Below, piece after piece: positions 2,817 through 63,946 of a DNA stretch of 64,000 nt. The translations under genes and the position numbers were made by a program. How positions within the stretch are numbered: position 1 is the first letter of the stretch; the number at the start of each line of letters is the position of its first letter. The stretch comes from a virus. Its lineage: Duplodnaviria; Caudoviricetes. Below the pieces are notes generated by a model, which searched no databases, was not told where the DNA came from, and saw nothing but the letters and a program-made list of their open reading frames with translations. Where the stretch lies: the IMG/VR virus record IMGVR_UViG_3300021387_000688; one strand, given 5' to 3'.

Positions 2817-5023
2817 TCAATATCTCTACCATATACTTTATAAATTTCAAGCAATATCTTTCTTTTGATTGCTTTTGCTTTAAAAATATCTTCAAGGTAA
2901 TCATCCATTACTTGAACAAACTTACCTTCGTTTTCATCGCACTCCCCGTAAGAAGTATTATGCAATTGTTCTCCTCGTCTGTCAATGGTAAGCTGCCATG
3001 AGTTCAAAGACCTAAAGTCCTTCATGCAAAGCCTTACGATAAAATTATAGTCTTCTGTTGAAAACTCAATTCTATAGCATGAAGGTCTAAAATGTTCTGG
3101 AGGAAAATTAATACAACGATGCAAATCAAAATTAAGAAGATTTAATTCCTTCATTGCATTTTCAACCATTTTTTCTTCTGTAATGGCGTCAATTGTTCCT
3201 TTATAAAAAGGGTTTAATTTACACACTATTTCAAAATCTTCAGCCACCTTAGCTTTCTGCTCATTTGTGGCGTTCAATTCATTCAATACTTCTTTTGTAT
3301 TAGGAGGAAGTTTGAAATCTTCTTTCCAGTAAAGTTTAACTAATTCGCTTTTTACAAATTCCAATAACCCAGTTGCAGAATTTACATCCATCTGTTTTTT
3401 AACATCTTTAACAAATTCACCATCTTCCATTCCGGTTCTTGTATAATCAATTACCTTAGGATTCTTAGGAAGTGCGCATTTAAGACTCCAGTTACCGTGA
3501 ATCCATTTTAAGAGATGACTTCCGAGGTCATCTTTCGTAATATCTAAAGTCGGGTAATATTTAACTCTACTACGGAACCATTGACGTGCAGCGTCTTCCA
3601 TATACTTGTTATCAAAATCGATTCTAACCGTAGCATCCCCATAAAGGGTTGTAGTAGGAGACACAAAAGGCATCATAAAAGTATACTGAATATGACTTTC
3701 TTCTAGAGTTTTTCTCATCCATTCTTTCATAGCTGCTTTTACTTCTTCGGCACGTCGTTCATTTCTCTTTTTCCTAGCCTCTTCATATTCTCTTTCATCA
3801 TTCTTTACGGCCCAACCATTGTATTCGTTTTTAAGTTTTTCAAGTATATTGAATCTAAAATCATCCCAGAAATCTTCGTAATTATTAACAATGTTAAAGA
3901 TATCCCTCATCCTTGGGAAGAAGTTTGCTAGCGATCCCTGATATGGAAGATTTGGAAACTTTTTATCACAAATGCTAGAGATGCTAATATGATCAAAAAC
4001 GTCCCAAACATTCAATCCGCAAAAAGTAATGCCCTGAGGGTGCAAATCAATTTTTAATTTAAACTCTTTTTCTTCTCCGGAGAAGCCCTTAAAAGAAATT
4101 TCTGCATAGCATTCAGGTTCACTACATTCTACAAAATCTATGTGAAGAGAATCTTTATAATATTCAATATGAGTTGGCCACAATCTTTCTATTTCTTCTT
4201 CTCTCCATTCATGGAATTTGTTAACTTCAAGTAAAGATACTTGATACAAGAATTCCTCAACTACTTTCGGTGCATCCATCTTATTCCAATCATTGCCTTC
4301 ATAATCTTGCCAAAGCTGCACCAACTTCTTTTTCAAAAAACAAATATTATCCCCTTTACAAATTGTATAAGGAGGGAACGCATTACTATTAATATTCCAA
4401 TACATCTTTCCTGCAAGTGCTTCAAAGGAATTATGCAGCGTATCGCAAGACTGTTTTTTATTCAATTCAATTACCATACTCACGTCAAAGTAAATTGAAT
4501 TTATAAAAAATCCACCATGTACATGCTCTTCCATAGCTCTGCACTTATCTTCATCTGTACCAGAAGTGTAATTGAAAGATACTTGCCAATTTCTTTCATC
4601 GTAAAGAGGTTCAACAATTTTAGGTTCAGAATTGGTCAACCTGTCATGGTAATTTTTTATTTCAACTTTTAAAGTCTCTATCATTTTGATCCAAAGGTAA
4701 GAAGATAATGGAGTTACATTATCTTTACTGAGCTTCTGCATTTTAAGACCTTTCCAGATTTTTGCATCAATATCTTTATTAAACTTTATATAAAGTTTTT
4801 CTTTACGGGCTGAATCACAAAGGGATTCAAAAACTACTGCATTAGAGTTTTTCTTGTAAAAACTTATTTCAAGCTTCATTGTTTCGATAGCTTTATTATC
4901 CCATTCTTCAATCAAACCAGATTCCATAGAATCTATTGTTTCTACAACCCAATGTACAGAGGCTATTTGCCTTGCCCAGTATCCTAAATCTTCTAATCCT
5001 TCAAAGTGTAAATTATAATACAT
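2804..5023 (-). CDS. large hypothetical protein, same paralog motif
   Basis: 739 aa ORF containing LPPNTKEVLNELNATNEQKAKVAEDFE. Confidence 0.75.
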   Translation of the reverse strand: MYYNLHFEGLEDLGYWARQIASVHWVVETIDSMESGLIEEWDNKAIETMKLEISFYKKNSNAVVFESLCDSARKEKLYIKFNKDIDAKIWKGLKMQKLSKDNVTPLSSYLWIKMIETLKVEIKNYHDRLTNSEPKIVEPLYDERNWQVSFNYTSGTDEDKCRAMEEHVHGGFFINSIYFDVSMVIELNKKQSCDTLHNSFEALAGKMYWNINSNAFPPYTICKGDNICFLKKKLVQLWQDYEGNDWNKMDAPKVVEEFLYQVSLLEVNKFHEWREEEIERLWPTHIEYYKDSLHIDFVECSEPECYAEISFKGFSGEEKEFKLKIDLHPQGITFCGLNVWDVFDHISISSICDKKFPNLPYQGSLANFFPRMRDIFNIVNNYEDFWDDFRFNILEKLKNEYNGWAVKNDEREYEEARKKRNERRAEEVKAAMKEWMRKTLEESHIQYTFMMPFVSPTTTLYGDATVRIDFDNKYMEDAARQWFRSRVKYYPTLDITKDDLGSHLLKWIHGNWSLKCALPKNPKVIDYTRTGMEDGEFVKDVKKQMDVNSATGLLEFVKSELVKLYWKEDFKLPPNTKEVLNELNATNEQKAKVAEDFEIVCKLNPFYKGTIDAITEEKMVENAMKELNLLNFDLHRCINFPPEHFRPSCYRIEFSTEDYNFIVRLCMKDFRSLNSWQLTIDRRGEQLHNTSYGECDENEGKFVQVMDDYLEDIFKAKAIKRKILLEIYKVYGRDIEWRG

Positions 5024-8297: not shown

Positions 8298-9112
8298 TTA
8301 ACAATGAAAGAACCATATTGTAAAATTCCTGGGCAAGGAATCATACAAGGGCCACTTTTGAATTCAACTTCTTTTACTTCGTAACCTTTATTTGTTAACC
8401 AAGTGGCTAAAGATTTTGCAAATTCGTTTGGATTTCCTTTAATACAATTTTTATCTACAAGTACATGGAAACCACCGTTTGTAGAAACAACCATTCCTTT
8501 TAAGTTTACAAAAATCTTTGATTCTTTAAAGAAAGGTTTAATATAAACATCCTTAACTGTAGTTCTATCGAAGGTTTCAAGATTCTCAATATCAATATCA
8601 AAATCGATCCACTTTGTGCGGTTACATTCCATTCGTTCTGAACGGAAATCTGAATTTGTATGTGCAAGCTGGTTTTTACCATCTGCTCCACCATCATTAG
8701 ACAATACGATATTCTTTTGGATATCATTAACAGCAGAGAGATGCTTTAAAGCAACTTTTCTTTCATCTGAAGGGTTGCAGCAAATAAATGTAGTCATTGC
8801 TTTCTGAGGGAGCGCGATTTCGTTTTCAGTACCTCTATTGAAAGTTAAACATTTAATAGGTACTTCAAGTTCGTACATTTTCTGAAGAGCGTTTTCTGAA
8901 TTAACTCTGCATCCGTCAGAACCCCGAATTGTTTTTGTTAAGTAAACCTCTCGGTTTCTTGCACCTAGCATTTTTCTTTCTTCGTCTGTAAGTTTCTTAG
9001 AACGGAATGCGGTATTTACAAGATATGTTTCGTAAGGAAAAATATCCCCTAATCTTTCGAGAAATGTTAAAAATTGATTTTCATCTACTAATACTTTGTA
9101 TGTTTCGCTCAT
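8282..9112 (-). CDS. AEP/PrimPol-like protein
   Basis: WIDFDID (DxD) and STNGGFH (motif II-like). Confidence 0.45.
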   Translation of the reverse strand: MSETYKVLVDENQFLTFLERLGDIFPYETYLVNTAFRSKKLTDEERKMLGARNREVYLTKTIRGSDGCRVNSENALQKMYELEVPIKCLTFNRGTENEIALPQKAMTTFICCNPSDERKVALKHLSAVNDIQKNIVLSNDGGADGKNQLAHTNSDFRSERMECNRTKWIDFDIDIENLETFDRTTVKDVYIKPFFKESKIFVNLKGMVVSTNGGFHVLVDKNCIKGNPNEFAKSLATWLTNKGYEVKEVEFKSGPCMIPCPGILQYGSFIVNWEEL

Positions 9113-25137: not shown

Positions 25138-25662
25138 ATGTACGAAAGCATAGAAGTTGAACAAGTTCATACCATGAGGCCTATTAATCCTGTTTGGGAA
25201 ATGAAACAAACTATGAAGACTTTTGAAGAATTACCGACCAATTTAGTTTATAAAGCCGTTACTACTTCTAAATGTGGTTTAGGAAAAACTCAAGGGCAGA
25301 AAGGAGAGTACCATGGAATGTATTTTGATAGCTATTGGGAGTTTGCTTTCTATTTATACTTCTGTGAAATTAAAGGACATTCAGTTGTAAGAAATACTCA
25401 AGACTCTTTTGAATATATAGATGAGAGTGGTAAAGCCGCTAGGTTCTTTCCTGACTTTAAAGTTGATGGGGCCTATCATGAAATAAAAGGTATTTACAGA
25501 CCTAATGATATGTTAAAAAGAGATGCTACTATTGGTTTAGTAACTTTCTGGGGGCCTCAAGAAATGAGACCTATCTTAAAAGCTGTTTATGCTTATGACC
25601 CGAAGTGGAAAGAAAGATATCAAACAGTATTGCCTCATAAAATTGCTTATGGTAAAAAATAA
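25138..25662 (+). CDS. PD-(D/E)XK endonuclease-like protein
   Basis: FDSYWE...FFPDFKV...EIKG. Confidence 0.7.
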   Translation: MYESIEVEQVHTMRPINPVWEMKQTMKTFEELPTNLVYKAVTTSKCGLGKTQGQKGEYHGMYFDSYWEFAFYLYFCEIKGHSVVRNTQDSFEYIDESGKAARFFPDFKVDGAYHEIKGIYRPNDMLKRDATIGLVTFWGPQEMRPILKAVYAYDPKWKERYQTVLPHKIAYGKK

Positions 25663-38131: not shown

Positions 38132-38214
38132 GCGTTCATGACCGGAGATGGCATCGGGCCTGACTGTAAATCAGGTGTATTCGTACATGGGGAGTTCGAG
38201 TCTCTCAGGGCGCA
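38132..38214 (+). tRNA. tRNA-Tyr(GTA), second divergent copy
   Basis: CCTGA-CTGTAAA-TCAGG, TTCGAG T-loop. Confidence 0.8.
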
Positions 38215-38618: not shown

Positions 38619-39445
38619 GGGTTGGTTTCCGATCCTATTAAAAGATAAACGGTGAATACATAAGCCGTGAAAGTCATATTCGTAAAGGTATGGCGGTGGG
38701 AATTTATTTTCCACTCTACGTGAAAACAATGCATCTAACTTGTGATGGCGTTGACCGACGGCAAGTGCTGAGGTTGATAGTTGCAAGGCTCGGTAGTCGA
38801 CGAGCTTGGTTCAAGTTGAGAAGTTGCTTTCTTAATAGCAACTTTGACTACAAGAATGACAGAAGGTGTATTTATCCTCTAAGAAAGAATTGCAAGTTCC
38901 CATAGAGAGGATAACGAACAACGGTAGGTTCTTCAAAGAAATGAGGAGAATTGAAGTCAGTAGATCGAGTAGTTTTTGCAGACGAAAGTAGAAAGGTGAA
39001 GTTTTCTAAACCAGTCAAAAGCTGGCAAGGAACAAGCTAGACCTCATCTTTCAAGGTAGTCAACCGAAATTCTTATGATTAACTCAGTTGGATAGAGTAA
39101 TTGCCTCCTAAGCAATCTGTCGTAGGTTCAATTCCTACATCACAAGCAAAAGTGTCTAGCACAGCCAAATGAAAATGGCGTTATCCAGGTGAAATATACT
39201 GGCTTGGTGAGTACCGCAAGGAAAGTCAAGAATGGAATGAAGTAGTCAACTGGTAAGAGCCCGCAAGCTCTTCAGGCCGCAAGCCGCTAGGGATGAAAAA
39301 GGAAATTATAAGTTTGGTTGTAGTGAGTTCGACAACACTCTTTAAGTTGTTCGCCATGCGTTCTACTATCAGAAATGGTAGTGTGATTGAAGTTCCGAAA
39401 GGGATTAAAATGAACGTTGTTTAGGTCAATAAATCTCAGCCTTTT
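38619..39445 (+). ncRNA. GOLLD-like giant structured RNA with embedded tRNA-Arg
   Basis: about 830 nt without a credible ORF, many GNRA-capped hairpins (GCAA/GAAA), 3' end AATCTCAGCC, internal tRNA, located in a phage tRNA array. Confidence 0.55.
39073..39146 (+). tRNA. tRNA-Arg(CCT) embedded in GOLLD-like RNA
   Basis: ATTGC-CTCCTAA-GCAAT; one acceptor mismatch. Confidence 0.75.
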
Positions 39446-39454
39446 CATTTTTTT

Positions 39455-39526
39455 CAATCTGTAGTTTAACGGATAGAACTTCAGCCTCCTAAGCTGAAAG
39501 TGCGAGTTCAATTCTCGCCAGGTTGA
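39455..39526 (+). tRNA. tRNA-Arg(CCT)
   Basis: TCAGC-CTCCTAA-GCTGA. Confidence 0.88.
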
Positions 39527-39530
39527 CTAT

Positions 39531-39667
39531 ATAGCATAAGTTGTTCCTATTAAGAGCATGACTAAAATCTGCTGGCAATGCGCCGTATGGGTTCGACTCC
39601 CATCGATCCTCTAAAGGGGATTGTGGTGGAATGGTAGACACGGCAGACTCATTATACAACCCGCTAT
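39531..39667 (+). ncRNA. circularly permuted tRNA-Leu-like RNA (YrlA-like) in conserved frame
   Basis: 3' half (39563-39611) precedes 5' half (39616-39649); acceptor stem closed by TAAA; flanks pair. Confidence 0.8.
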
Positions 39668-39676
39668 ATTTTTTAT

Positions 39677-39749
39677 AGGTCCTTAGTGTTAACGGTTAGC
39701 ACGACAGTCTCCAAAACTGTTTGTGAGGGTTCGAATCCTTCAGGGCCTG
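39677..39749 (+). tRNA. tRNA-Trp(CCA)
   Basis: ACAGT-CTCCAAA-ACTGT. Confidence 0.92.
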
Positions 39750-39915
39750 AAACTGAATGGGTAGCCACTGAAAAGTAAATAGACTGTTTATGAAGTAGGG
39801 GTCCAAACAGAGCTTGTCGCTGATTACATATCAAAGAGTTATTAGTCTAGTCAACTAGATTCGGAGATGGTTTGAAGCTAAACAGGATGACAAAGGGCGA
39901 GTCCTGATTTTTTAT

Positions 39916-39999
39916 CGTTCGGTGGCGGAATTGGTAGACGCACTGGACTCAAAATCCAGCGGTGGCAACACCATGAGGGTTCGATTCCCTCCCGGACGA
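39916..39999 (+). tRNA. tRNA-Leu(CAA)
   Basis: CTGGA-CTCAAAA-TCCAG, variable arm. Confidence 0.92.
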
Positions 40000-40129
40000 C
40001 TCAAATCCCTCTTCCTAAAGTTGGGAGAAAAAGTAACTTTCGGATAGCGGTACAGCCGCATCTTTTTTCTATCCAGTATGAAAGTTATGAGGACGGTGAA
40101 AGGCTCCCGTCCATTTTTTTAAGGAAAAG

Positions 40130-40271
40130 AAATTGCACAGAGTGTTCCTATTATTGCTTTGGGAGCCCTGGGTTGTAGGTTCGAGTCCTACCCTGCCAAC
40201 TATTTCAAAAAGTTAAAAACTTTGGCAGGTAGCTCAACTGGTAGAGCAAGGATTTTTACACTTCGCAATTT
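40130..40271 (+). ncRNA. circularly permuted tRNA-Pro-like RNA (YrlA-like) in conserved frame
   Basis: TTGGGA + T-arm + CCTGCCA precede TGGCAGG + D-arm; frame GCACAGAGTGTTCCTAT...TACACTTCGC. Confidence 0.8.
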
Positions 40272-40278
40272 TTATATA

Positions 40279-40346
40279 TGAGGTTTAGCTTAGACTCGGT
40301 TAAAGCAACGTGCACAGAAAGGAGGTTCGATTCCTTCTAACCTCAA
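40279..40346 (+). ncRNA. tRNA-like RNA lacking an anticodon arm
   Basis: intact acceptor (TGAGGTT/AACCTCA), D arm and T arm; only about 14 nt between D and T arms. Confidence 0.6.
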
Positions 40347-40349
40347 GCA

Positions 40350-40791
40350 AAGCCGTAGGGAGTAGGATAACTCTTTAGCTTATAGGTTCAGTACTAACCT
40401 GTGAACTAATCACTCCCGAACTAGGTACAGGAACGAAAACTGAAGTGGGGAAGAAGCGGAGGTTGGATACTGTGGTAATCCTAGAGCATGTGAAAGTAGG
40501 AGAGTTGACTTTGGAGAGTGCCAACTTAATGTTCAACCCTGATCCAAGTATCTCTTCCCTTATAGGAAGGGTACGAAAAATGCATTGGATAGAATTAGAT
40601 GCTCCTACATATAAAAAATGACGATTATCGCACACGAGATGATCAAAAAGGTGCAACAACGGTGGGGAAAGCCCATGCCGGTTAAAAGAGCAGATCTGCG
40701 CGATGTCCTTCGACGGTATCTGCCGTAAGAGGGTAGGGGAACCTTGTAGACAAGGGACTGAAGGGGTGTACTCGATCCGAAAAGTTATCTT
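40350..40791 (+). ncRNA. unassigned large (about 430 nt) structured RNA
   Basis: closing helix AGGATAACT/AGTTATCTT, many internal hairpins, ends in T tract. Confidence 0.55.
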
Positions 40792-40801
40792 TTTTTTTAT
40801 T

Positions 40802-40892
40802 TCAGGATAATTCCTGCAAGGTCCGCGGATGTAGGAAATGGAAACCTTATAGATCAATAAGGAATAGGACGTTCGAATCGTTTGATCCTGAC
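40802..40892 (+). ncRNA. non-canonical tRNA-like RNA
   Basis: TCAGGAT/ATCCTGA acceptor, GTTCGAATC T-loop, 8-bp first arm, CCTTAT/ATAAGG second arm. Confidence 0.5.
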
Positions 40893-41149
40893 TTCACAAC
40901 AGCTGGTGACAATTATCCAGGAACACTTAGAGTCCGCTAAGGTTAGCTGCAACTAACTGGATGCTCAATGTATAGCAAAGACTGTGCAAAGATGACTGGA
41001 AGAAAGAGACACGTGGAAGGGTGTCGGGTAACTTTGCTACCTCCATAACGAGAAACCCGCCGTGATTTGCAGTCAACGATACAGTTTCTCTACTTCCAAT
41101 TTTTGGAGTGATCCATATCGGATTATTAGACATTAAGTCTGAAACATAT

Positions 41150-41232
41150 TGGAGCGTATCTCAGCTGTCTTATAAACAGTCCGGTATAATTCGAGTAATT
41201 GGTGGATGAGGGTTCAACTCCCTCCGCTCCAA
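41150..41232 (+). tRNA. arm-rearranged tRNA-Ile(TAT)-like RNA
   Basis: perfect acceptor and T arm; anticodon arm GCTGT-CTTATAA-ACAGT directly after acceptor; TAATTGGT D-loop-like motif lies 3' of it. Confidence 0.6.
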
Positions 41233-41321
41233 CTATATGTAATGATATCATTACAGGAATAAGATAAAATGGACTACCCCAACATAATCGCGATATGTGG
41301 GTAACGAAAGAGTAGTCAAAA

Positions 41322-41393
41322 TCCGCCGTAGCTCATCTGGTCAGAGCAGCTCTTTTTAAGGGTATGTAGTGGGTTCGACCCCCACCGGTGGTT
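41322..41393 (+). tRNA. tRNA-Lys(TTT), atypical short anticodon stem
   Basis: canonical D and T arms; GCTC-TTTTTAA-GGGT. Confidence 0.55.
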
Positions 41394-41396
41394 TAT

Positions 41397-41693
41397 ATGG
41401 AAAATGCACAGCCAAGAATTAAGTTTAAAAACTTTTGGCTTTGGTTTAAAGATCAAGTAATGCGTAAAAGGGCTTTCTATAATTTCTTTATAAGTAGAAA
41501 TGCTTGGGGAGCTTTTTCTATCAACTCCCACATCAGAGCAAGTACAGGGCAACCAAAAGTAACTTACAATACAGTAGAATCTGCGTTAAGGGCCGCAGAG
41601 AGTATGAGTAAAAAATATAACAAACATTTTTCAACTTATAAATGTTTGTTCTGCGATGGTTACCATGTAGGAAAAAATAGAGATAATAAATAG
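41397..41693 (+). CDS. small basic protein with YxCxxCxxxH motif
   Basis: YKCLFCDGYHVG. Confidence 0.65.
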   Translation: MENAQPRIKFKNFWLWFKDQVMRKRAFYNFFISRNAWGAFSINSHIRASTGQPKVTYNTVESALRAAESMSKKYNKHFSTYKCLFCDGYHVGKNRDNK

Positions 41694-41720
41694 GAGTAGT
41701 TAACAACTACTCCTTTTTTT
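41692..41720 (+). terminator. intrinsic terminator ending array 1 transcript
   Basis: AGGAGTAGTT-AAC-AACTACTCCT + T tract. Confidence 0.8.
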
Positions 41721-41766
41721 ATGCAAATTAAAACTTTTCTACTATATAATTAATAGGAGAATTTAT

Positions 41767-43188
41767 ATGCGTAAGAATTTATTTAAAGAAGCAATACCGG
41801 CAGAAAGGGACCGTAGAGCCGCAGGGGTAAAATACCGCGATTCAAGTGTAATAGATATGCTTCATGTTGAGGATGATACTTCCGGAGCTGCTACTGCTAA
41901 ATTGATTTCTTTCTTAAAGAAAGAAAAATTCAGCGAATACCAAGATTATTTTCGAAAAACAATCAAGCTTTTTGGAGAAAACTATGATGTATATGTTCCT
42001 TATGTATATAAAAAAGGAACATTTACAGTAGTTAGATGGTTTATCGAACCTGGCAAGTACAATAGAACTGCATGGGCGGAATGGTATAATGATGAAGAGG
42101 ATTGGGAATATCTTGATCCATCTTTCGCAAAAATCGTTGAGAGATATGGTCTAAAAAGAATGAAGGCTTACATAGGGGATGATCCTTACTATGGTTTAGG
42201 ACTTCGTATGCAGAATACTGAAATGACTTCTAATGATTTTGTTAATAAATTGTTAGTGGTTTATAATAAACTTGAAAAGGTAAAAGATAGTTACAATACA
42301 ACTAGTCAAATGGATGATAGAGAATACTACACATATAAAGGCAAGTTACCAAATAACAACCTTCAAATAAACGTATTCTATGTAGACGGAGAAAATGGTT
42401 GTACAATTGAATATGATTGTGAAGTATTAGGTGAAGATCTTAAATGCTATGTTGAATCTGAAAATTCTGCAGTCGGTCTAGATCTTAACGAACCTTCTGT
42501 AACAAAACCTTTCTTTGAGGTTTTAGCTGAAGAAGGAATTATTGAAGAGGAAGATGTAGATTCTTTAGCTGAAGAATTTGATAATGGGCCAACTTATAAT
42601 TATCTTCAAATTTTTGATGTAAGTGATTGGCCAAAGTATTTTGAAATGGTAGGGGAATTCTTAAAAGCAGAGGGTTATATAACTGAATACAATGTAGAAG
42701 CTAGTAGAGCCGTAAACTCTCGTAGAAAGAACCGTATTAAGAACAATCCAAATCTTAGACAGCAGTACGAATCCAGAATTTCTAAAATCTCAAGAAGAAT
42801 GAGAGAAGCAGAAGAAGATTGGGATGACCTTGGATACGATGATTCAGATGCAGGTGTAGAAGATTGGGATGATCCTAATGAAGCTTTAGATGGTGAAGAT
42901 TATTTCACTTATGATGATCCTGATTATACAGGAATGAATTCTGGGGAAAGAGCTTATGACCATTACGATTCTGATATGGAAGATGTAATTGCAGATTCAA
43001 TGCCAACCCGTAAAAAGGGATTAGGTATTGGAAAGAAAAGAGGAGACTCTTCATATTTCAATAAGGATTATTTAGACGCCCCAGATATGTGGGATGAAAA
43101 TGGAGACAATGTTCCTGAAGAAATTGAATGGAAGTTGACTAAAAAAGTTGCAGAATCTAAAAAACCTTTCAAAACAAGATTGTATTAA
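41767..43188 (+). CDS. hypothetical protein with acidic C-terminus, possible head-internal protein
   Basis: 473 aa ORF, AGGAG RBS, LFKEA / MREAEE / VAES motifs. Confidence 0.7.
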   Translation: MRKNLFKEAIPAERDRRAAGVKYRDSSVIDMLHVEDDTSGAATAKLISFLKKEKFSEYQDYFRKTIKLFGENYDVYVPYVYKKGTFTVVRWFIEPGKYNRTAWAEWYNDEEDWEYLDPSFAKIVERYGLKRMKAYIGDDPYYGLGLRMQNTEMTSNDFVNKLLVVYNKLEKVKDSYNTTSQMDDREYYTYKGKLPNNNLQINVFYVDGENGCTIEYDCEVLGEDLKCYVESENSAVGLDLNEPSVTKPFFEVLAEEGIIEEEDVDSLAEEFDNGPTYNYLQIFDVSDWPKYFEMVGEFLKAEGYITEYNVEASRAVNSRRKNRIKNNPNLRQQYESRISKISRRMREAEEDWDDLGYDDSDAGVEDWDDPNEALDGEDYFTYDDPDYTGMNSGERAYDHYDSDMEDVIADSMPTRKKGLGIGKKRGDSSYFNKDYLDAPDMWDENGDNVPEEIEWKLTKKVAESKKPFKTRLY

Positions 43189-48050: not shown

Positions 48051-49439
48051 TTACTTAAGTTCGTAACTTACATCTTTTTGAATGATTTCTACATTCTTAA
48101 ATCCATTTGTATTTAGATATTTTTGCAAGAAGTCTTGAGCCTCTTTATCACCATGTACTAAGAAAATCTTTTTAAGTTTAGAAGTATCAATTTTCTTTAA
48201 CCATTCTACTTGCTCTTCAAAATCTGCATGAGAAGAAAATGCACTTAAGCTTTGAACCTCTGCATTTAATTTATGCTCATCTCCTTCAATATTTACAATA
48301 GGATTCTTTTCAAGAATATCTCTACCTAAAGTACCTTCTCCTTGATAACCAACTAACAATATAGTATTACGAGGATTAGAAACTCCAAACTGTAAATGAT
48401 TGATGATACGGCCACCTTCACACATACCTGAACTTGCCAATACAATACAAGGCTTTCTACTTCTGGCAACTTCAACACTTTCTTTGAAATCATTTACGCA
48501 ATGTAAACTACCTACAGAGAATGGGTTCTTACCTTTACTTACAAAGTTGTTTTGAATATTTTCATTGAAACATTCTGGGTGAATATTAAATACACCTGTA
48601 GCATTAACAGCCATTGGAGAATCAATATATACAGGTATTCTAGGTATCTTCTCTTCTCTCATTAAGTTCTTCAAATAATAAACTAACTCTTGTGCACGTT
48701 CAATTGCAAAGGTAGGTATAATAACTTTACCACCTCTTTCAATAGTTCTGTTTATAATATTTGCAAACTCTTTTAATGCCAATCCCGCATCTTGGTGTTT
48801 GCGATTTCCATAAGTACTTTCCATTACGATGTAATCTGGTGCAGGGAAAGAAGTCTCCGGAGGATTAGTAATAGGGTTGTTAGCTCTACCCAAATCTCCT
48901 GTAAACAAAATATGCATTGGCGTTTTTAACAAACCGAAAAACTTTTTTCTTTTGATTTCTAAATCTACTAAAGCAGATCCTAAGATATGACCCGCATCGT
49001 AAAAAGTAATTTTTACATTATCATTAAGATGTTTCTCTTTATGATAGAAGTGACATCTAAATTGATTAATAGTTTTTACAACATCACTTTCTTCATAGTA
49101 AGATCCGAGCTTTTCATGTTTTTGAATTTTAGCAGAGTCTAGCATTATGATAGAAGATAAATCTCTCGTGGCTGGAGTAGATCTAATCTTTCCTTCATAA
49201 CCTTCTTTTACAAGTTTAGGTAATAGACCACAATGGTCAAAATGTGCATGGGTTAGAATGATTGTTTCTATATCTTTTATATCTATAGGACAAACAAAAT
49301 CTTTATTCTTTTGCTGATCTTCTTGATTGCCTTGCCATGCACCGTAGTCAATCAAGATATATTTATCATCTAATTTCAAAAAATGCTTAGACCCTGTAAC
49401 TTCGCCTACCGCACCAAAACTTTTTAATTCTACCTTCAA
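48051..49439 (-). CDS. MBL-fold beta-CASP ribonuclease (CPSF/Ysh1-like)
   Basis: GEVTGS, THAHFDH, AGHILGS, FTGD, ESTYG, SSHAD, LVHGD. Confidence 0.92.
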   Translation of the reverse strand: MKVELKSFGAVGEVTGSKHFLKLDDKYILIDYGAWQGNQEDQQKNKDFVCPIDIKDIETIILTHAHFDHCGLLPKLVKEGYEGKIRSTPATRDLSSIIMLDSAKIQKHEKLGSYYEESDVVKTINQFRCHFYHKEKHLNDNVKITFYDAGHILGSALVDLEIKRKKFFGLLKTPMHILFTGDLGRANNPITNPPETSFPAPDYIVMESTYGNRKHQDAGLALKEFANIINRTIERGGKVIIPTFAIERAQELVYYLKNLMREEKIPRIPVYIDSPMAVNATGVFNIHPECFNENIQNNFVSKGKNPFSVGSLHCVNDFKESVEVARSRKPCIVLASSGMCEGGRIINHLQFGVSNPRNTILLVGYQGEGTLGRDILEKNPIVNIEGDEHKLNAEVQSLSAFSSHADFEEQVEWLKKIDTSKLKKIFLVHGDKEAQDFLQKYLNTNGFKNVEIIQKDVSYELK

Positions 49440-63280: not shown

Positions 63281-63356
63281 AGCGGGCGAGTGAAACGGAA
63301 TTATCATGCTAGCCTCATAAGCTAGAGATACTGGTGTTCGACTCCCAGGTCCGCCA
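63281..63356 (+). tRNA. tRNA with CAT anticodon (Met or Ile2)
   Basis: CTAGC-CTCATAA-GCTAG; 1:72 mismatch. Confidence 0.75.
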
Positions 63357-63889: not shown

Positions 63890-63946
63890 AAACGCACAAA
63901 GTGTTCCTATTTTATACATGATTTGGTTTGTATACACTTCGCGTTT
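63890..63946 (+). ncRNA. third copy of the GTGTTCCTAT frame, lacking a tRNA-like insert
   Basis: AAACGCACAAAGTGTTCCTAT...TACACTTCGCGTTT. Confidence 0.7.

What the first reader, a model, noticed from the sequence alone, without database searches (positions are those of the whole stretch)
40130..40271. Second permuted tRNA mimic (Pro-like) in the same frame
Seen: TTGGGA, then T arm GTAGGTTCGAGTCCTAC and CCTGCCA-ACTA, a ~20-nt AT-rich linker, then TGGCAGG-TAGCTCAACTGGTAGAGC. The 3' half keeps the ACTA trailer found on this phage's normal tRNAs. A different tRNA body sits in the same frame as the Leu-like copy, which suggests repeated capture of tRNA halves, for example from tandem tRNA genes.
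Basis: partly seen in the sequence, partly recalled or inferred. Interest (0 to 1): 0.7.

Follow-up and report, generated by a model that had tools for sequence, protein, structure and literature searches.

The report
Phage tRNA mimic on protein-docking stalk
This 146-base phage RNA gene is a complete proline-tRNA body written back to front and mounted on a conserved two-helix stalk; the same stalk recurs in many huge phages next to one uncharacterised protein gene, so it probably belongs to an undescribed RNA-protein particle that works like the Ro60/Y-RNA particle.

Summary
Window 40128-40273 (+) holds a full tRNA body in permuted order: anticodon hairpin, T arm, loop-closed 7-bp acceptor stem, then D arm. 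It sits in a two-helix frame: P1, ANA bulge, 6-bp P2, then UCCUAU, with UAC, a C bulge and GC on the return strand.

The frame is real. I found more than 55 distinct copies in unrelated IMG/VR phage contigs, and both helices covary. No Rfam family matches the frame. Only the tRNA part gives a sub-threshold YrlA hit (43.8 bits against a threshold of 69).

The cargo is interchangeable: permuted tRNAs of at least eight anticodon identities, tRNA parts, or short loops. The frame also sits inside normal-order tRNA genes like an intron.

No Ro60/TROVE gene was found. The frame instead travels with an unnamed protein of about 600-700 aa, with a helical N-terminal part and a TerD-like domain. That gene starts right after frame arrays and carries a frame in its own 5' leader in 8 of 8 relatives examined for this. 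It is absent from this window but present in the closest available relative.

Best reading: a stable, protein-docked tRNA mimic analogous to Y RNA. Main rival: a permuted pre-tRNA, because removing the frame in silico rebuilds perfect tRNAs. Earlier notes of this scan describe similar stalk RNAs on other DNA.

The parts
40128..40136 (+). Frame helix P1, 5' strand (AGAAATTGC; the inner end GC is near-invariant in the family)
   Evidence: Pairs with 40265-40273. P1 covaries across copies.
40137..40139 (+). Conserved 3-nt bulge ANA (here ACA)
   Evidence: The first A is invariant and the third is at least 90% A in 20 aligned frames.
40140..40145 (+). Frame helix P2, 5' strand (GAGTGT; the last two bases GT are invariant)
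   Evidence: Pairs with 40258-40263. P2 is 99% paired, with compensatory changes at its 4 variable pairs.
40146..40155 (+). Invariant single-stranded UCCUAU(UA) followed by a 2-nt linker
   Evidence: TCCTAT is invariant in 20 of 20 short frames and 7 of 7 permuted copies.
40156..40169 (+). Upper anticodon stem and loop: GC (tRNA nt 30-31), loop TTTGGGA (anticodon TGG at 40160-40162), and stem 3' strand GCCCT
   Evidence: Joining AGG (40249-40251) to GC (40156-40157) gives the perfect stem AGGGC/GCCCT with a 7-nt loop, U33 and G37. ARAGORN calls the rejoined sequence tRNA-Pro(TGG).
40170..40191 (+). Variable region GGGTT and T arm (GTAGG TTCGAGT CCTAC)
   Evidence: T stem pairs 5/5. Aligned to the YrlA T arm.
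40192..40229 (+). Loop-closed acceptor stem: 3' strand 40192-40198, A73 at 40199, AT-rich loop 40200-40222, 5' strand 40223-40229
   Evidence: 7/7 pairs, plus A40199:T40222. All 7 acceptor pairs show changes on both sides across 7 copies.
40230..40251 (+). U8-A9, D arm (GCTC AACTGGTA GAGC), A26, and lower anticodon stem 5' strand AGG (nt 27-29)
   Evidence: G18-G19 and a possible A15:U48 Levitt pair can be read directly from the sequence.
40252..40273 (+). 6-nt linker ATTTTT, P2 3' strand ACACTT (40258-40263), bulged C (40264), P1 3' strand GCAATTTTT, running into a T-rich tail
   Evidence: The pattern T-AC-N4-C-GC is invariant or near-invariant in the family.
39529..39669 (+). Sister element: permuted tRNA-Leu(UAA)-like body in the same frame, between tRNA-Arg and tRNA-Trp
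63890..63946 (+). Third copy of the frame in the window, with only a 27-nt AU-rich loop as cargo
   Evidence: Frame model R1 scores it 58.1 bits, E 4e-14.

Best explanation
The element is a small non-coding RNA gene. It encodes a correctly folding tRNA body (elbow, closed acceptor stem, intact anticodon hairpin) tethered by two short single-stranded linkers to a conserved two-helix stalk, which I call the frame. I infer that the frame is the docking site of a conserved, so far unnamed protein of about 600-700 aa, with an alpha-helical N-terminal half and a TerD-like beta domain. In other phages this protein's gene lies directly after such RNAs and carries a frame in its own 5' leader.

The RNA would then act as Y RNAs do with Ro60. 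The constant stalk holds the protein, and the exchangeable tRNA-shaped cargo presents a tRNA surface to some tRNA-recognising factor, either to recruit it or to sequester it.

Shown here: the anatomy, conservation and covariation of the RNA; the frame's modular cargo; and the genomic linkage of frame and protein. Inferred: binding, stability of the full-length RNA, and the biological target. A role in the phage-host conflict over tRNAs is a guess.
For: RNA anatomy and significance.

The frame is a family:
- 41 distinct copies in the first set of loci and 16 more in a second scan.
- 4-8 short-form copies in each phage record searched.
- In 20 short frames, 90% of cells pair and P2 is 99% paired with double changes at all its variable pairs. 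None of 500 shuffles reaches the observed covariation score, and slid controls pair only 30-45%.
- Starting from the 5' motif alone, 26 of 42 sites have a perfect 3' partner within 300 nt, against 1 with a shuffled P2.

The tRNA arms covary in 7 permuted copies: 19 of 28 pairs show changes on both sides, including 7 of 7 acceptor pairs.

Closed acceptor stems look selected. They are 6-10 bp and usually 7+1, with the discriminator paired. Loops include UAAA, UUA, UUAA, UUCG and GUAA. The aminoacylation identity bases are off: U1:A72 here against C1:G72 in the phage's two normal tRNA-Pro genes, and C73/G73 in the Leu-like copies. Normal Pro(UGG) and Leu(UAA) genes exist in the same window.

Other cargoes cannot be tRNA precursors: D plus anticodon arm only, T arm only, an ACCA minihelix, an acceptor-less form.

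Protein linkage:
- The ORF beside the single chromosomal frame of a Muribaculaceae genome has homologues (E 1e-42 to 1e-104) starting right after the last frame in 11 phage loci.
- It is present in 4 of 5 frame-bearing phage records, including both complete ones and the closest relative of this phage.
- Eight homologues examined for this, five of them picked from the database list alone, all have a full or minimal frame 10-30 nt before the start codon.
- The family has at least 1209 members, all unnamed, with no Pfam or PDB sequence match.
- The AlphaFold model is confident (pLDDT 87, pTM 0.82) and contains a TerD-like domain.
Against: - The protein gene is not in this 64-kb window, even with a family profile at E up to 10. 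The rest of the roughly 389-kb genome could not be read.
- Binding between the protein and the frame is inferred from synteny only.
- Removing the frame in silico and re-permuting gives canonical tRNAs in 7 of 7 cases. Three loop-split copies keep C32-U33 on the far strand. RtcB ligase is present in all three near-complete related records. A precursor role is therefore not excluded.
- This copy has a long, trailer-like acceptor loop, unlike most relatives.
Confidence: 0.6

Rival explanations
1. It is a circularly permuted pre-tRNA-Pro. The frame is excised, possibly by the linked protein or another nuclease, and nt 29 is ligated to nt 30, for example by RtcB, giving a circular intermediate. 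RNase P and 3' trimming then open the acceptor loop to release a decoding tRNA. The frames inside normal-order tRNA genes would be true introns.
For: - Rejoining gives perfect 5-bp stems, 7-nt loops, U33 and R37, and ARAGORN calls tRNAs in 7 of 7 cases.
- The inferred 5' junction lies 6 nt before P2 in most copies, range 5-7 in the permuted copies.
- The frame occurs as an intron-like hairpin in normal-order tRNA-Glu/Gly, Pro, Lys and other genes.
- RtcB is present in 3 of 3 near-complete records.
- This copy keeps a 7-bp acceptor, A73 and a trailer-like loop. M. smegmatis YrlA is cut by RNase P and receives CCA in vivo (PMC4201824).
Against: - There is no BHB motif, and no EndA gene in the 5 phage records.
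- The inferred 3' junction lies 9-18 nt from P2 with no common structure.
- Junction positions wander from 28/29 to 33/34.
- Relatives have tetraloop-capped or over-long acceptor stems.
- Identity elements are wrong for ProRS and LeuRS (identity rules from established knowledge).
- Normal genes for the same anticodons are present.
- Many cargoes are not whole tRNAs.
Confidence: 0.15
2. It is a genuine YrlA Y RNA that binds a Ro60/Rsr protein, either from the host or encoded elsewhere in the phage.
For: It has YrlA's module order and a full-length hit to RF02553 at E about 1e-7. YrlA genes occur in phage tRNA clusters (PMC4201824). The control search over named genomes found TROVE in Bacteroides thetaiotaomicron, among others.
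Against: - The score is below the gathering threshold and comes from the tRNA part. The middle helix of the model is deleted in the alignment.
- The GNCGAAN0-1G motif is absent.
- No TROVE domain was found in the window's ORFs of 300 aa or more, or in 5 related records including two complete genomes.
- The frame travels with a different protein.
- YrlA lacks an anticodon loop (bioRxiv 10.1101/312249); this RNA has one.
Confidence: 0.05
3. The frame is mainly a cis-acting element, such as a translational operator, terminator or processing stem. The tRNA pieces in its loop are incidental passengers picked up in tRNA arrays, with no function of their own.
For: A frame sits in the 5' leader of the protein gene. 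Many copies carry only AU-rich loops and are followed by U runs. Frames also lie outside tRNA arrays.
Against: The tRNA cargo is kept intact by compensatory changes, with closed acceptors and complete elbows. Permuted cargoes recur with at least eight different anticodon identities in unrelated phages.
Confidence: 0.1
4. It is a decayed remnant of two tandem tRNA genes, with no function.
For: The linker resembles an inter-tRNA spacer with the native A-CTA trailer. The two halves best match different tRNAs.
Against: - The acceptor, T and D stems are perfect, and the split anticodon stem is perfect.
- The same architecture and frame occur in unrelated phages with covariation.
- The element is identical in a second assembly of the same phage, although that comparison carries no informative variation.
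Confidence: 0.02

Closest known systems
YrlA-type bacterial and phage Y RNAs with Ro60/Rsr (Rfam RF02553; Chen et al. 2014, PMC4201824; Wang et al. 2018, bioRxiv 10.1101/312249)
   Same: - A terminal protein-binding stem carries a tRNA-like module in the order T arm, loop-closed acceptor stem, D arm.
- The acceptor length varies between copies.
- Several related RNAs with fuller or partial tRNA cargo lie side by side, as YrlA and YrlB do.
- The RNA genes lie on the same strand next to the partner protein gene, often inside phage tRNA clusters.
   Different: - The stalk sequence and structure differ: GC/ANA/6 bp/UCCUAU against the GNCGAANG helix.
- The score is below Rfam's threshold.
- The anticodon hairpin is retained here.
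- The linked protein has no TROVE or vWA match and carries a TerD-like domain instead.
- The same stalk also occurs inside normal-order tRNAs.
Circularly permuted tRNA genes of Cyanidioschyzon merolae and other algae/archaea (review PMC3978253, listed; details from my own knowledge)
   Same: The 3' half lies upstream of the 5' half, joined by a short linker. Leader and trailer pair with each other. Rejoining gives a canonical tRNA. An intron-containing form and a permuted form of the same structure coexist.
   Different: There is no bulge-helix-bulge motif and no splicing endonuclease gene. The organism is a bacterial virus. Many relatives have tetraloop-closed acceptors and non-tRNA cargo. 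No circular intermediate has been shown.
Two-piece (permuted) tmRNA
   Same: A permuted gene order in which the T arm and acceptor 3' strand precede the acceptor 5' strand, with an intervening segment between them.
   Different: There is no G3:U70 pair (here G3:C70) and no tag reading frame or pseudoknots. Rfam tmRNA models score only 13-25 bits here and on the related loci.
Phage T4 stable RNAs species 1 and 2 (rnaC, rnaD) in the tRNA cluster
   Same: Non-decoding, tRNA-related stable RNAs encoded inside a phage tRNA cluster, of unknown function.
   Different: No sequence or structure comparison was made here. No conserved stalk or linked protein is known for them.

Membership tests
YrlA (Rfam RF02553) | tRNA-like module in the order T arm, closed acceptor stem-loop, D arm, enclosed by a terminal stem | tested here: met
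YrlA (Rfam RF02553) | Score at or above Rfam's gathering threshold (69 bits) | tested here: not met
   43.8 bits. Relatives score 33.8-40.4 bits.
YrlA (Rfam RF02553) | Ro60-binding module with the GNCGAAN0-1G motif on the 5' strand (PMC4201824) | tested here: not met
   No such motif in 40128-40160 or 39529-39560. The family consensus there is GC-ANA-NNNNGU-UCCUAU.
YrlA (Rfam RF02553) | Encoded within about 4 kb of an rsr (TROVE) gene on the same strand | tested here: not met
   No TROVE domain in the window's ORFs of 300 aa or more, nor in 5 related phage records. The rest of this genome could not be searched.
YrlA (Rfam RF02553) | No anticodon loop; the anticodon stem continues into the protein-binding stem (bioRxiv 10.1101/312249) | tested here: not met
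   A complete 7-nt loop TTTGGGA closed by GC/GC lies at 40156-40166. The stalk is attached by 6-nt and 10-nt linkers.
Circularly permuted tRNA genes (BHB-dependent) | The 3' half lies upstream of the 5' half, and rejoining gives a canonical tRNA | tested here: met
   ARAGORN calls tRNA-Pro(TGG) after in-silico rejoining; 7 of 7 family members behave the same way.
Circularly permuted tRNA genes (BHB-dependent) | Bulge-helix-bulge motif (3-nt bulge, 4-bp helix, 3-nt bulge) at the leader-trailer junction | tested here: not met
   The junction has 6-nt and 10-nt single strands and then a 6-bp P2. No 3-4-3 motif can be read from the sequence.
Circularly permuted tRNA genes (BHB-dependent) | Splicing endonuclease (EndA, PF01974) available | tested here: not met
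   0 of 5 related phage records, while the archaeal controls matched. Bacterial hosts lack EndA (established knowledge).
Circularly permuted tRNA genes (BHB-dependent) | Circular RNA intermediate and mature tRNA in vivo | not testable with these tools
Frame ('stalk') RNA family defined here | P1 ending in GC, 3-nt ANA bulge, 6-bp P2 ending in GU, UCCUAU, cargo, U-AC-N4, bulged C, GC | tested here: met
   All features are present at 40128-40273. The consensus comes from 20 short and 7 permuted copies. Model R1 cannot span this copy because the insert is too long.
Frame ('stalk') RNA family defined here | Linked gene for the helical + TerD-like protein of about 600-700 aa in the same genome | tested here: inconclusive
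   Absent from the window. Present in the closest relative G001 and in 4 of 5 related records.
Ro60 (TROVE + vWA) as the fold of the linked protein | HEAT-repeat ring and vWA domain | tested here: inconclusive
   No Pfam or PDB sequence match. The C-terminal domain matches TerD (3ibz, E 4e-4, prob 1.00), not vWA. The N-terminal domain gives only generic helical-repeat matches at Z 5.8 or less, including a phage Ro60 at Z 4.5, which is within noise.

The most novel reading that the evidence does not exclude
The frame is a splice and permutation signal, and the linked helical/TerD-like protein is the machine that recognises it, with RtcB as the ligase. On this reading, huge phages of gut and rumen bacteria express some tRNAs from intron-split and circularly permuted genes through circular intermediates. 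That would be a protein-dependent tRNA splicing system in bacterial viruses, independent of the archaeal/eukaryotic BHB-EndA system.
Probability: 0.12. Interest if true: 0.95.

Novelty: new variant of a known kind. Interest (0 to 1): 0.8.

Why it matters
Ro60/Y RNA is so far the only described bacterial or phage particle in which a constant protein-binding stem carries a tRNA mimic, and the role of that mimic is still unknown. Here a second, apparently unrelated stem-and-protein pair does the same thing. It does so modularly, showing whole tRNAs, elbows, anticodon arms or ACCA minihelices, and it appears in many huge phages: at least 1209 protein homologues, on contigs up to 377 kb.

This convergence suggests that presenting tRNA shapes on a protein handle is a general strategy in phage-host conflicts over tRNA. 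The family gives a large natural series of cargo variants for finding out what the tRNA mimic binds. It also flags unannotated RNA genes and a sizeable protein family with no name. If the rival reading is right, it would be the first permuted or split tRNA gene system in bacterial viruses.

Tried and rejected
- Similarity to known phages: megablast of 39000-42000 and tblastn of the portal protein against 50,697 phage records found nothing.
- The 473-aa ORF just downstream (41767-43188) as a hidden Ro60: no Pfam, PHROG or PDB match; only 7 close homologues; poor ESM Atlas model; absent from related records. Dropped as a partner candidate.
- Orthologue comparison: the only contig reaching the element (L122) is the same phage and is identical apart from one extra T in the tail. 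More distant contigs end before the array.
- Host RNA hypothesis: the frame is rare in bacteria. Of 37 genome hits, 3 are true frames, and one of those is probably a mis-binned phage contig. The rest are mostly chance matches inside genes, including one conserved coding sequence in Bacteroidota genomes. Frames were found in 0 of 120 other Bacteroidales genomes sampled, under strict filters.
- Rfam at permissive E-values on five frame-rich loci and on the chromosomal copy: no family matches the frame.
- K-turn, BHB, hammerhead, hairpin, twister and attC-like readings of the frame, and the resemblance of GAAGTTCCTATT to the Flp FRT arm: considered by eye and rejected. The variable P2 bases covary as RNA pairs and the required partner motifs are absent.
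- A pseudoknot between the ANA bulge and UAU of UCCUAU: rejected, because the middle bulge base varies while its would-be partner is invariant.
- All-against-all BLAST of ORFs around frames found only a homing-endonuclease-like family, judged to be unrelated mobile genes.
- Model R1 cannot span inserts longer than about 125 nt, so it misses both permuted copies in the window.
- Literature searches found no description of this frame or of the protein.

Full report
**The observation.** Window 40128-40273 (+) reads, in order:
- an outer-stem strand (40128-40136);
- the bulge ACA;
- an inner-stem strand GAGTGT;
- single-stranded TCCTATTA;
- GC, then the 7-nt loop TTTGGGA, then GCCCT;
- a 5-nt variable region;
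- a perfect T arm;
- CCTGCCA, then A;
- a 22-23 nt AT-rich loop that begins CTA;
- TGGCAGG;
- TA and a perfect D arm;
- A, then AGG;
- six U-rich bases;
- ACACTT, a bulged C, GCAATTTTT, and a T-rich tail.

ARAGORN finds 22 tRNAs in the window but none here. Rfam's only hit is YrlA (RF02553), matched over the full model at 43.8 bits with E about 1e-7. The gathering score is 69. In the alignment the T arm, acceptor hairpin, D arm and outer stem match, but the model's middle helix is deleted. Head-to-tail pairs of ordinary tRNAs in related loci score only 24-28 bits on the same model, so the hit is more than a tRNA-dimer artefact. The stretch folds better than all 200 shuffles, z = -3.1. One amendment: only the 3' half is specifically Pro-like, while the 5' half has a generic Lys/Ala-type D arm.

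**The anticodon arm is complete.** AGG (40249-40251) can pair with CCT of GCCCT. The GC at 40156-40157 closes the loop on the GC of GCCCT. Joining nt 29 to nt 30 gives the stem AGGGC/GCCCT with loop UUUGGGA. After in-silico removal of the frame and re-permutation, ARAGORN calls tRNA-Pro(TGG). The same operation gives canonical tRNAs for all seven permuted elements then in hand: Pro, Leu twice, Met, Asn, Thr and Ser anticodons. The junction lies between nt 28/29 and 33/34, depending on the copy.

**The frame is a family.**
- A pattern taken from the two window copies found real relatives among 72 IMG/VR hits.
- Scanning those loci gave 41 distinct frames. A second pattern gave 16 more.
- Consensus: P1 whose inner end is G-C then C-G, a 3-nt ANA bulge, a 6-bp P2 ending in G-U, invariant UCCUAU, the cargo, then U, AC-N4, a bulged C, and GC.
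- In 20 short copies, 90% of cells pair. P2 is 99% paired with double changes at all four variable pairs. None of 500 shuffles reaches the observed covariation score, and slid controls pair only 30-45%.
- My regex required pairing, so I also started from the 5' motif alone. Of 42 sites, 26 have a perfect 3' partner within 300 nt, against 1 with a shuffled P2. Most of the remaining sites are 5/6 matches or the intron-like form.
- Rfam at permissive thresholds has no family for the frame.
- A covariance model of the short form (R1) finds 4-8 copies in each phage record searched and a third copy in the window at 63890-63946. It cannot span the long inserts of the two permuted copies.

**The cargo is interchangeable.** One 750-nt array (L046) holds eight frames, carrying:
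- a bare loop;
- an ACCA-ended minihelix;
- a permuted tRNA-Thr-like body;
- two hairpins;
- an extended T arm;
- a second permuted tRNA;
- a D arm plus anticodon arm;
- a hairpin.

Other loci add an acceptor-less T+D form and normal-order tRNA-like inserts. The same frame, with P1 closed by a small loop such as GUAA, also sits inside otherwise normal tRNA genes on the 5' side of the anticodon arm. Rfam reports these as tRNAs of 112-119 nt. The permuted and intron-like forms are circular permutations of one secondary structure.

**The tRNA parts are under selection.** In the seven aligned permuted copies, 19 of 28 pairs show changes on both sides, including all seven acceptor pairs. T stems are 97% paired. 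Across 11 cleanly parsed copies, the acceptor hairpin is fully paired and 6-10 bp long, usually 7 plus a pair between the discriminator and base -1. Loops are mostly 3-6 nt, including UUCG and GUAA tetraloops. The window's Pro-like copy (22 nt) and one other (19 nt) are the exceptions.

**What it is not.**
- No TROVE/Ro60 domain was found in the window's ORFs of 300 aa or more, or in five frame-bearing phage records, two of them complete genomes of 411-424 kb.
- No EndA gene was found in those records.
- RtcB is present in the three near-complete records.
- The Ro60-binding motif GNCGAAN0-1G of YrlA (PMC4201824) is absent.
- YrlA has no anticodon loop (bioRxiv 10.1101/312249).

The element therefore has YrlA's architecture but fails its defining features.

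**The partner.** Earlier notes of this scan, on other genomes, said that stalk RNAs travel with an uncharacterised protein. I tested that idea on my own data.
- One true frame lies in an ordinary chromosomal neighbourhood of a Muribaculaceae genome (alanyl-tRNA synthetase, RecF, DciA, a thioesterase). It sits 10 nt upstream of a 609-aa ORF with no Pfam family.
- That protein has strong homologues (E 1e-42 to 1e-104) in 11 of my frame-bearing phage loci. Each homologue starts directly after the last frame on the same strand.
- It is present in 4 of 5 phage records. These include both complete genomes and G001, the closest available relative of this window's phage (beta-CASP nuclease 54% identical). 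Only an 18-kb fragment lacks it.
- The family has at least 1209 members. All are unnamed, and they lie on contigs up to 377 kb.
- Reverse test: I took five homologues chosen from that list alone, plus the genes in G001, G004 and G005. Every one has a full or minimal frame (ANA, P2, UCU or UCCUAU ... AU, P2', C, G) ending 10-30 nt before the ribosome-binding site and start codon. This arrangement is typical of an RNA-binding protein that regulates its own mRNA through a copy of its ligand.
- The AlphaFold model is confident (pLDDT 87, pTM 0.82). It shows a helical N-terminal half, a beta domain that matches TerD (3ibz, E 4e-4, probability 1.00), and C-terminal helices.
- The N-terminal domain folded alone gives only generic helical-repeat matches at Z 5.8 or less, among them a phage Ro60 at Z 4.5, which is within noise. 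There is no Pfam or PDB sequence match.
- The gene is not in this window, even by family profile. The rest of the roughly 389-kb genome was out of reach.

**Weighing the mechanisms.**

For a stable, protein-docked mimic:
- the frame-protein linkage and the leader copy;
- acceptor stems closed by tight loops, with the discriminator paired;
- wrong identity bases (U1:A72 here against C1:G72 in both normal tRNA-Pro genes; C73/G73 in the Leu-like copies against A73 in the normal Leu genes);
- normal genes for the same anticodons in the window;
- many cargoes that are not whole tRNAs.

For a permuted precursor:
- the perfect rejoined arms;
- retention of C32-U33 on the far strand in three loop-split copies;
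- the roughly constant 6-nt spacing of the 5' junction from P2;
- the intron-like forms;
- RtcB;
- this copy's 7-bp acceptor with A73 and a native A-CTA trailer.

Against the precursor reading, the inferred 3' junction has no fixed distance (9-18 nt) or structure, and the junction position wanders.

I put 0.6 on the mimic, 0.15 on the precursor, 0.1 on a purely cis-acting frame with passenger cargo, 0.05 on a true Ro60 partner and 0.02 on a dead scar.

**Origin.** Its trailer and AT-rich spacer resemble those between the phage's tRNAs. It is neither shown nor general. Relatives have minimal loops, and the two halves here do not match the same tRNA.

**Limits.** Binding is inferred from synteny. 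The orthologous copy available is identical and therefore uninformative. Literature searches of the held library found no description of the frame or the protein; a jumbo-phage survey mentions only TROVE proteins with tRNA-like partners (PMC7824862). Earlier first-reader notes of this scan report the same frame elsewhere in this genome, and follow-up reports on other genomes describe similar stalk RNAs with an unnamed protein. I used these as leads only.

Noticed in passing
window 38991-39442 (+): Sub-threshold GOLLD RNA match (RF02032, 97.8 bits against a gathering score of 150, E 1e-25, full model), with tRNA-Arg(CCT) at 39073-39147 embedded in it.
   Followed up: no
window 40280-40345 (+): tRNA-like RNA directly after the element. 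It has an acceptor stem with one T-T mismatch at its inner end and good D and T arms, but only 8 nt (ACGTGCAC) where the anticodon arm should be. RF00005 scores it 26.8 bits, below threshold, and ARAGORN does not call it.
   Followed up: partly
window 40346-41149: About 800 nt with no convincing ORF, between the armless tRNA-like RNA and the next tRNA-like gene. Possibly another large structured RNA. No Rfam hit at E of 5 or less.
   Followed up: no
window 41150-41232, 38132-38214, 63281-63356 (+): Three tRNA matches found by Rfam only (35.4, 31.0 and 31.7 bits) that ARAGORN does not call. They are probably aberrant or rearranged tRNA-like genes.
   Followed up: no
L016 (-) about 500-640 and 4301-4414; L013 3740-3850 and 8850-8990; L069; L002; L065 467-585: Normal-order tRNA genes (Glu/Gly, Pro-GGG, Lys and others) that carry the frame as a roughly 45-nt intron-like hairpin on the 5' side of the anticodon arm. 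The anticodon differs between homologous copies (UUC, CUC, UCC).
   Followed up: partly
L084 4417-4470 and 4480-6309 (Muribaculaceae MAG); identical in L093: A single frame plus the linked protein gene, in an ordinary bacterial chromosomal neighbourhood (AlaRS, RecF, DciA, thioesterase). Frames were not found in 120 other Bacteroidales genomes sampled.
   Followed up: partly
L193 about 1440-1490, L200 about 3950-3990, L201 about 3955-3995, L198 about 3945-3985: Minimal frames (ANA, 6-bp P2, UCU...AU loop, C, G) that abut the ribosome-binding site of the linked protein gene. They look like translational operators.
   Followed up: partly
L013 about 8740-8790; L069; L068 (upstream of solo frames): A repeated near-consensus sigma-70-type promoter (TTGACA, about 17 nt, TACTAT) fires directly into a solo frame followed by an intron-type tRNA. 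Frame and tRNA therefore form one transcription unit, repeated in tandem.
   Followed up: no
L129:4689-5429, L132:3644-4369, L126:2205-2723, window 25138-25662 (+): A weakly endonuclease-I-like / DUF7487 protein family lies next to solo frames in two phages and is also present in the window. These are probably free-standing homing nucleases.
   Followed up: partly
window 48051-49439 (-): Beta-CASP/RMMBL RNA nuclease (RNase J / CPSF73-like), 54% identical to a protein of the related phage record G001.
   Followed up: partly
window tRNA genes, e.g. 38341, 38534, 38614, 39527, 40000, 62791: The phage's tRNAs encode no CCA. Most are followed by CTA or CTC right after the discriminator, which may be a shared 3'-processing signal.
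   Followed up: no
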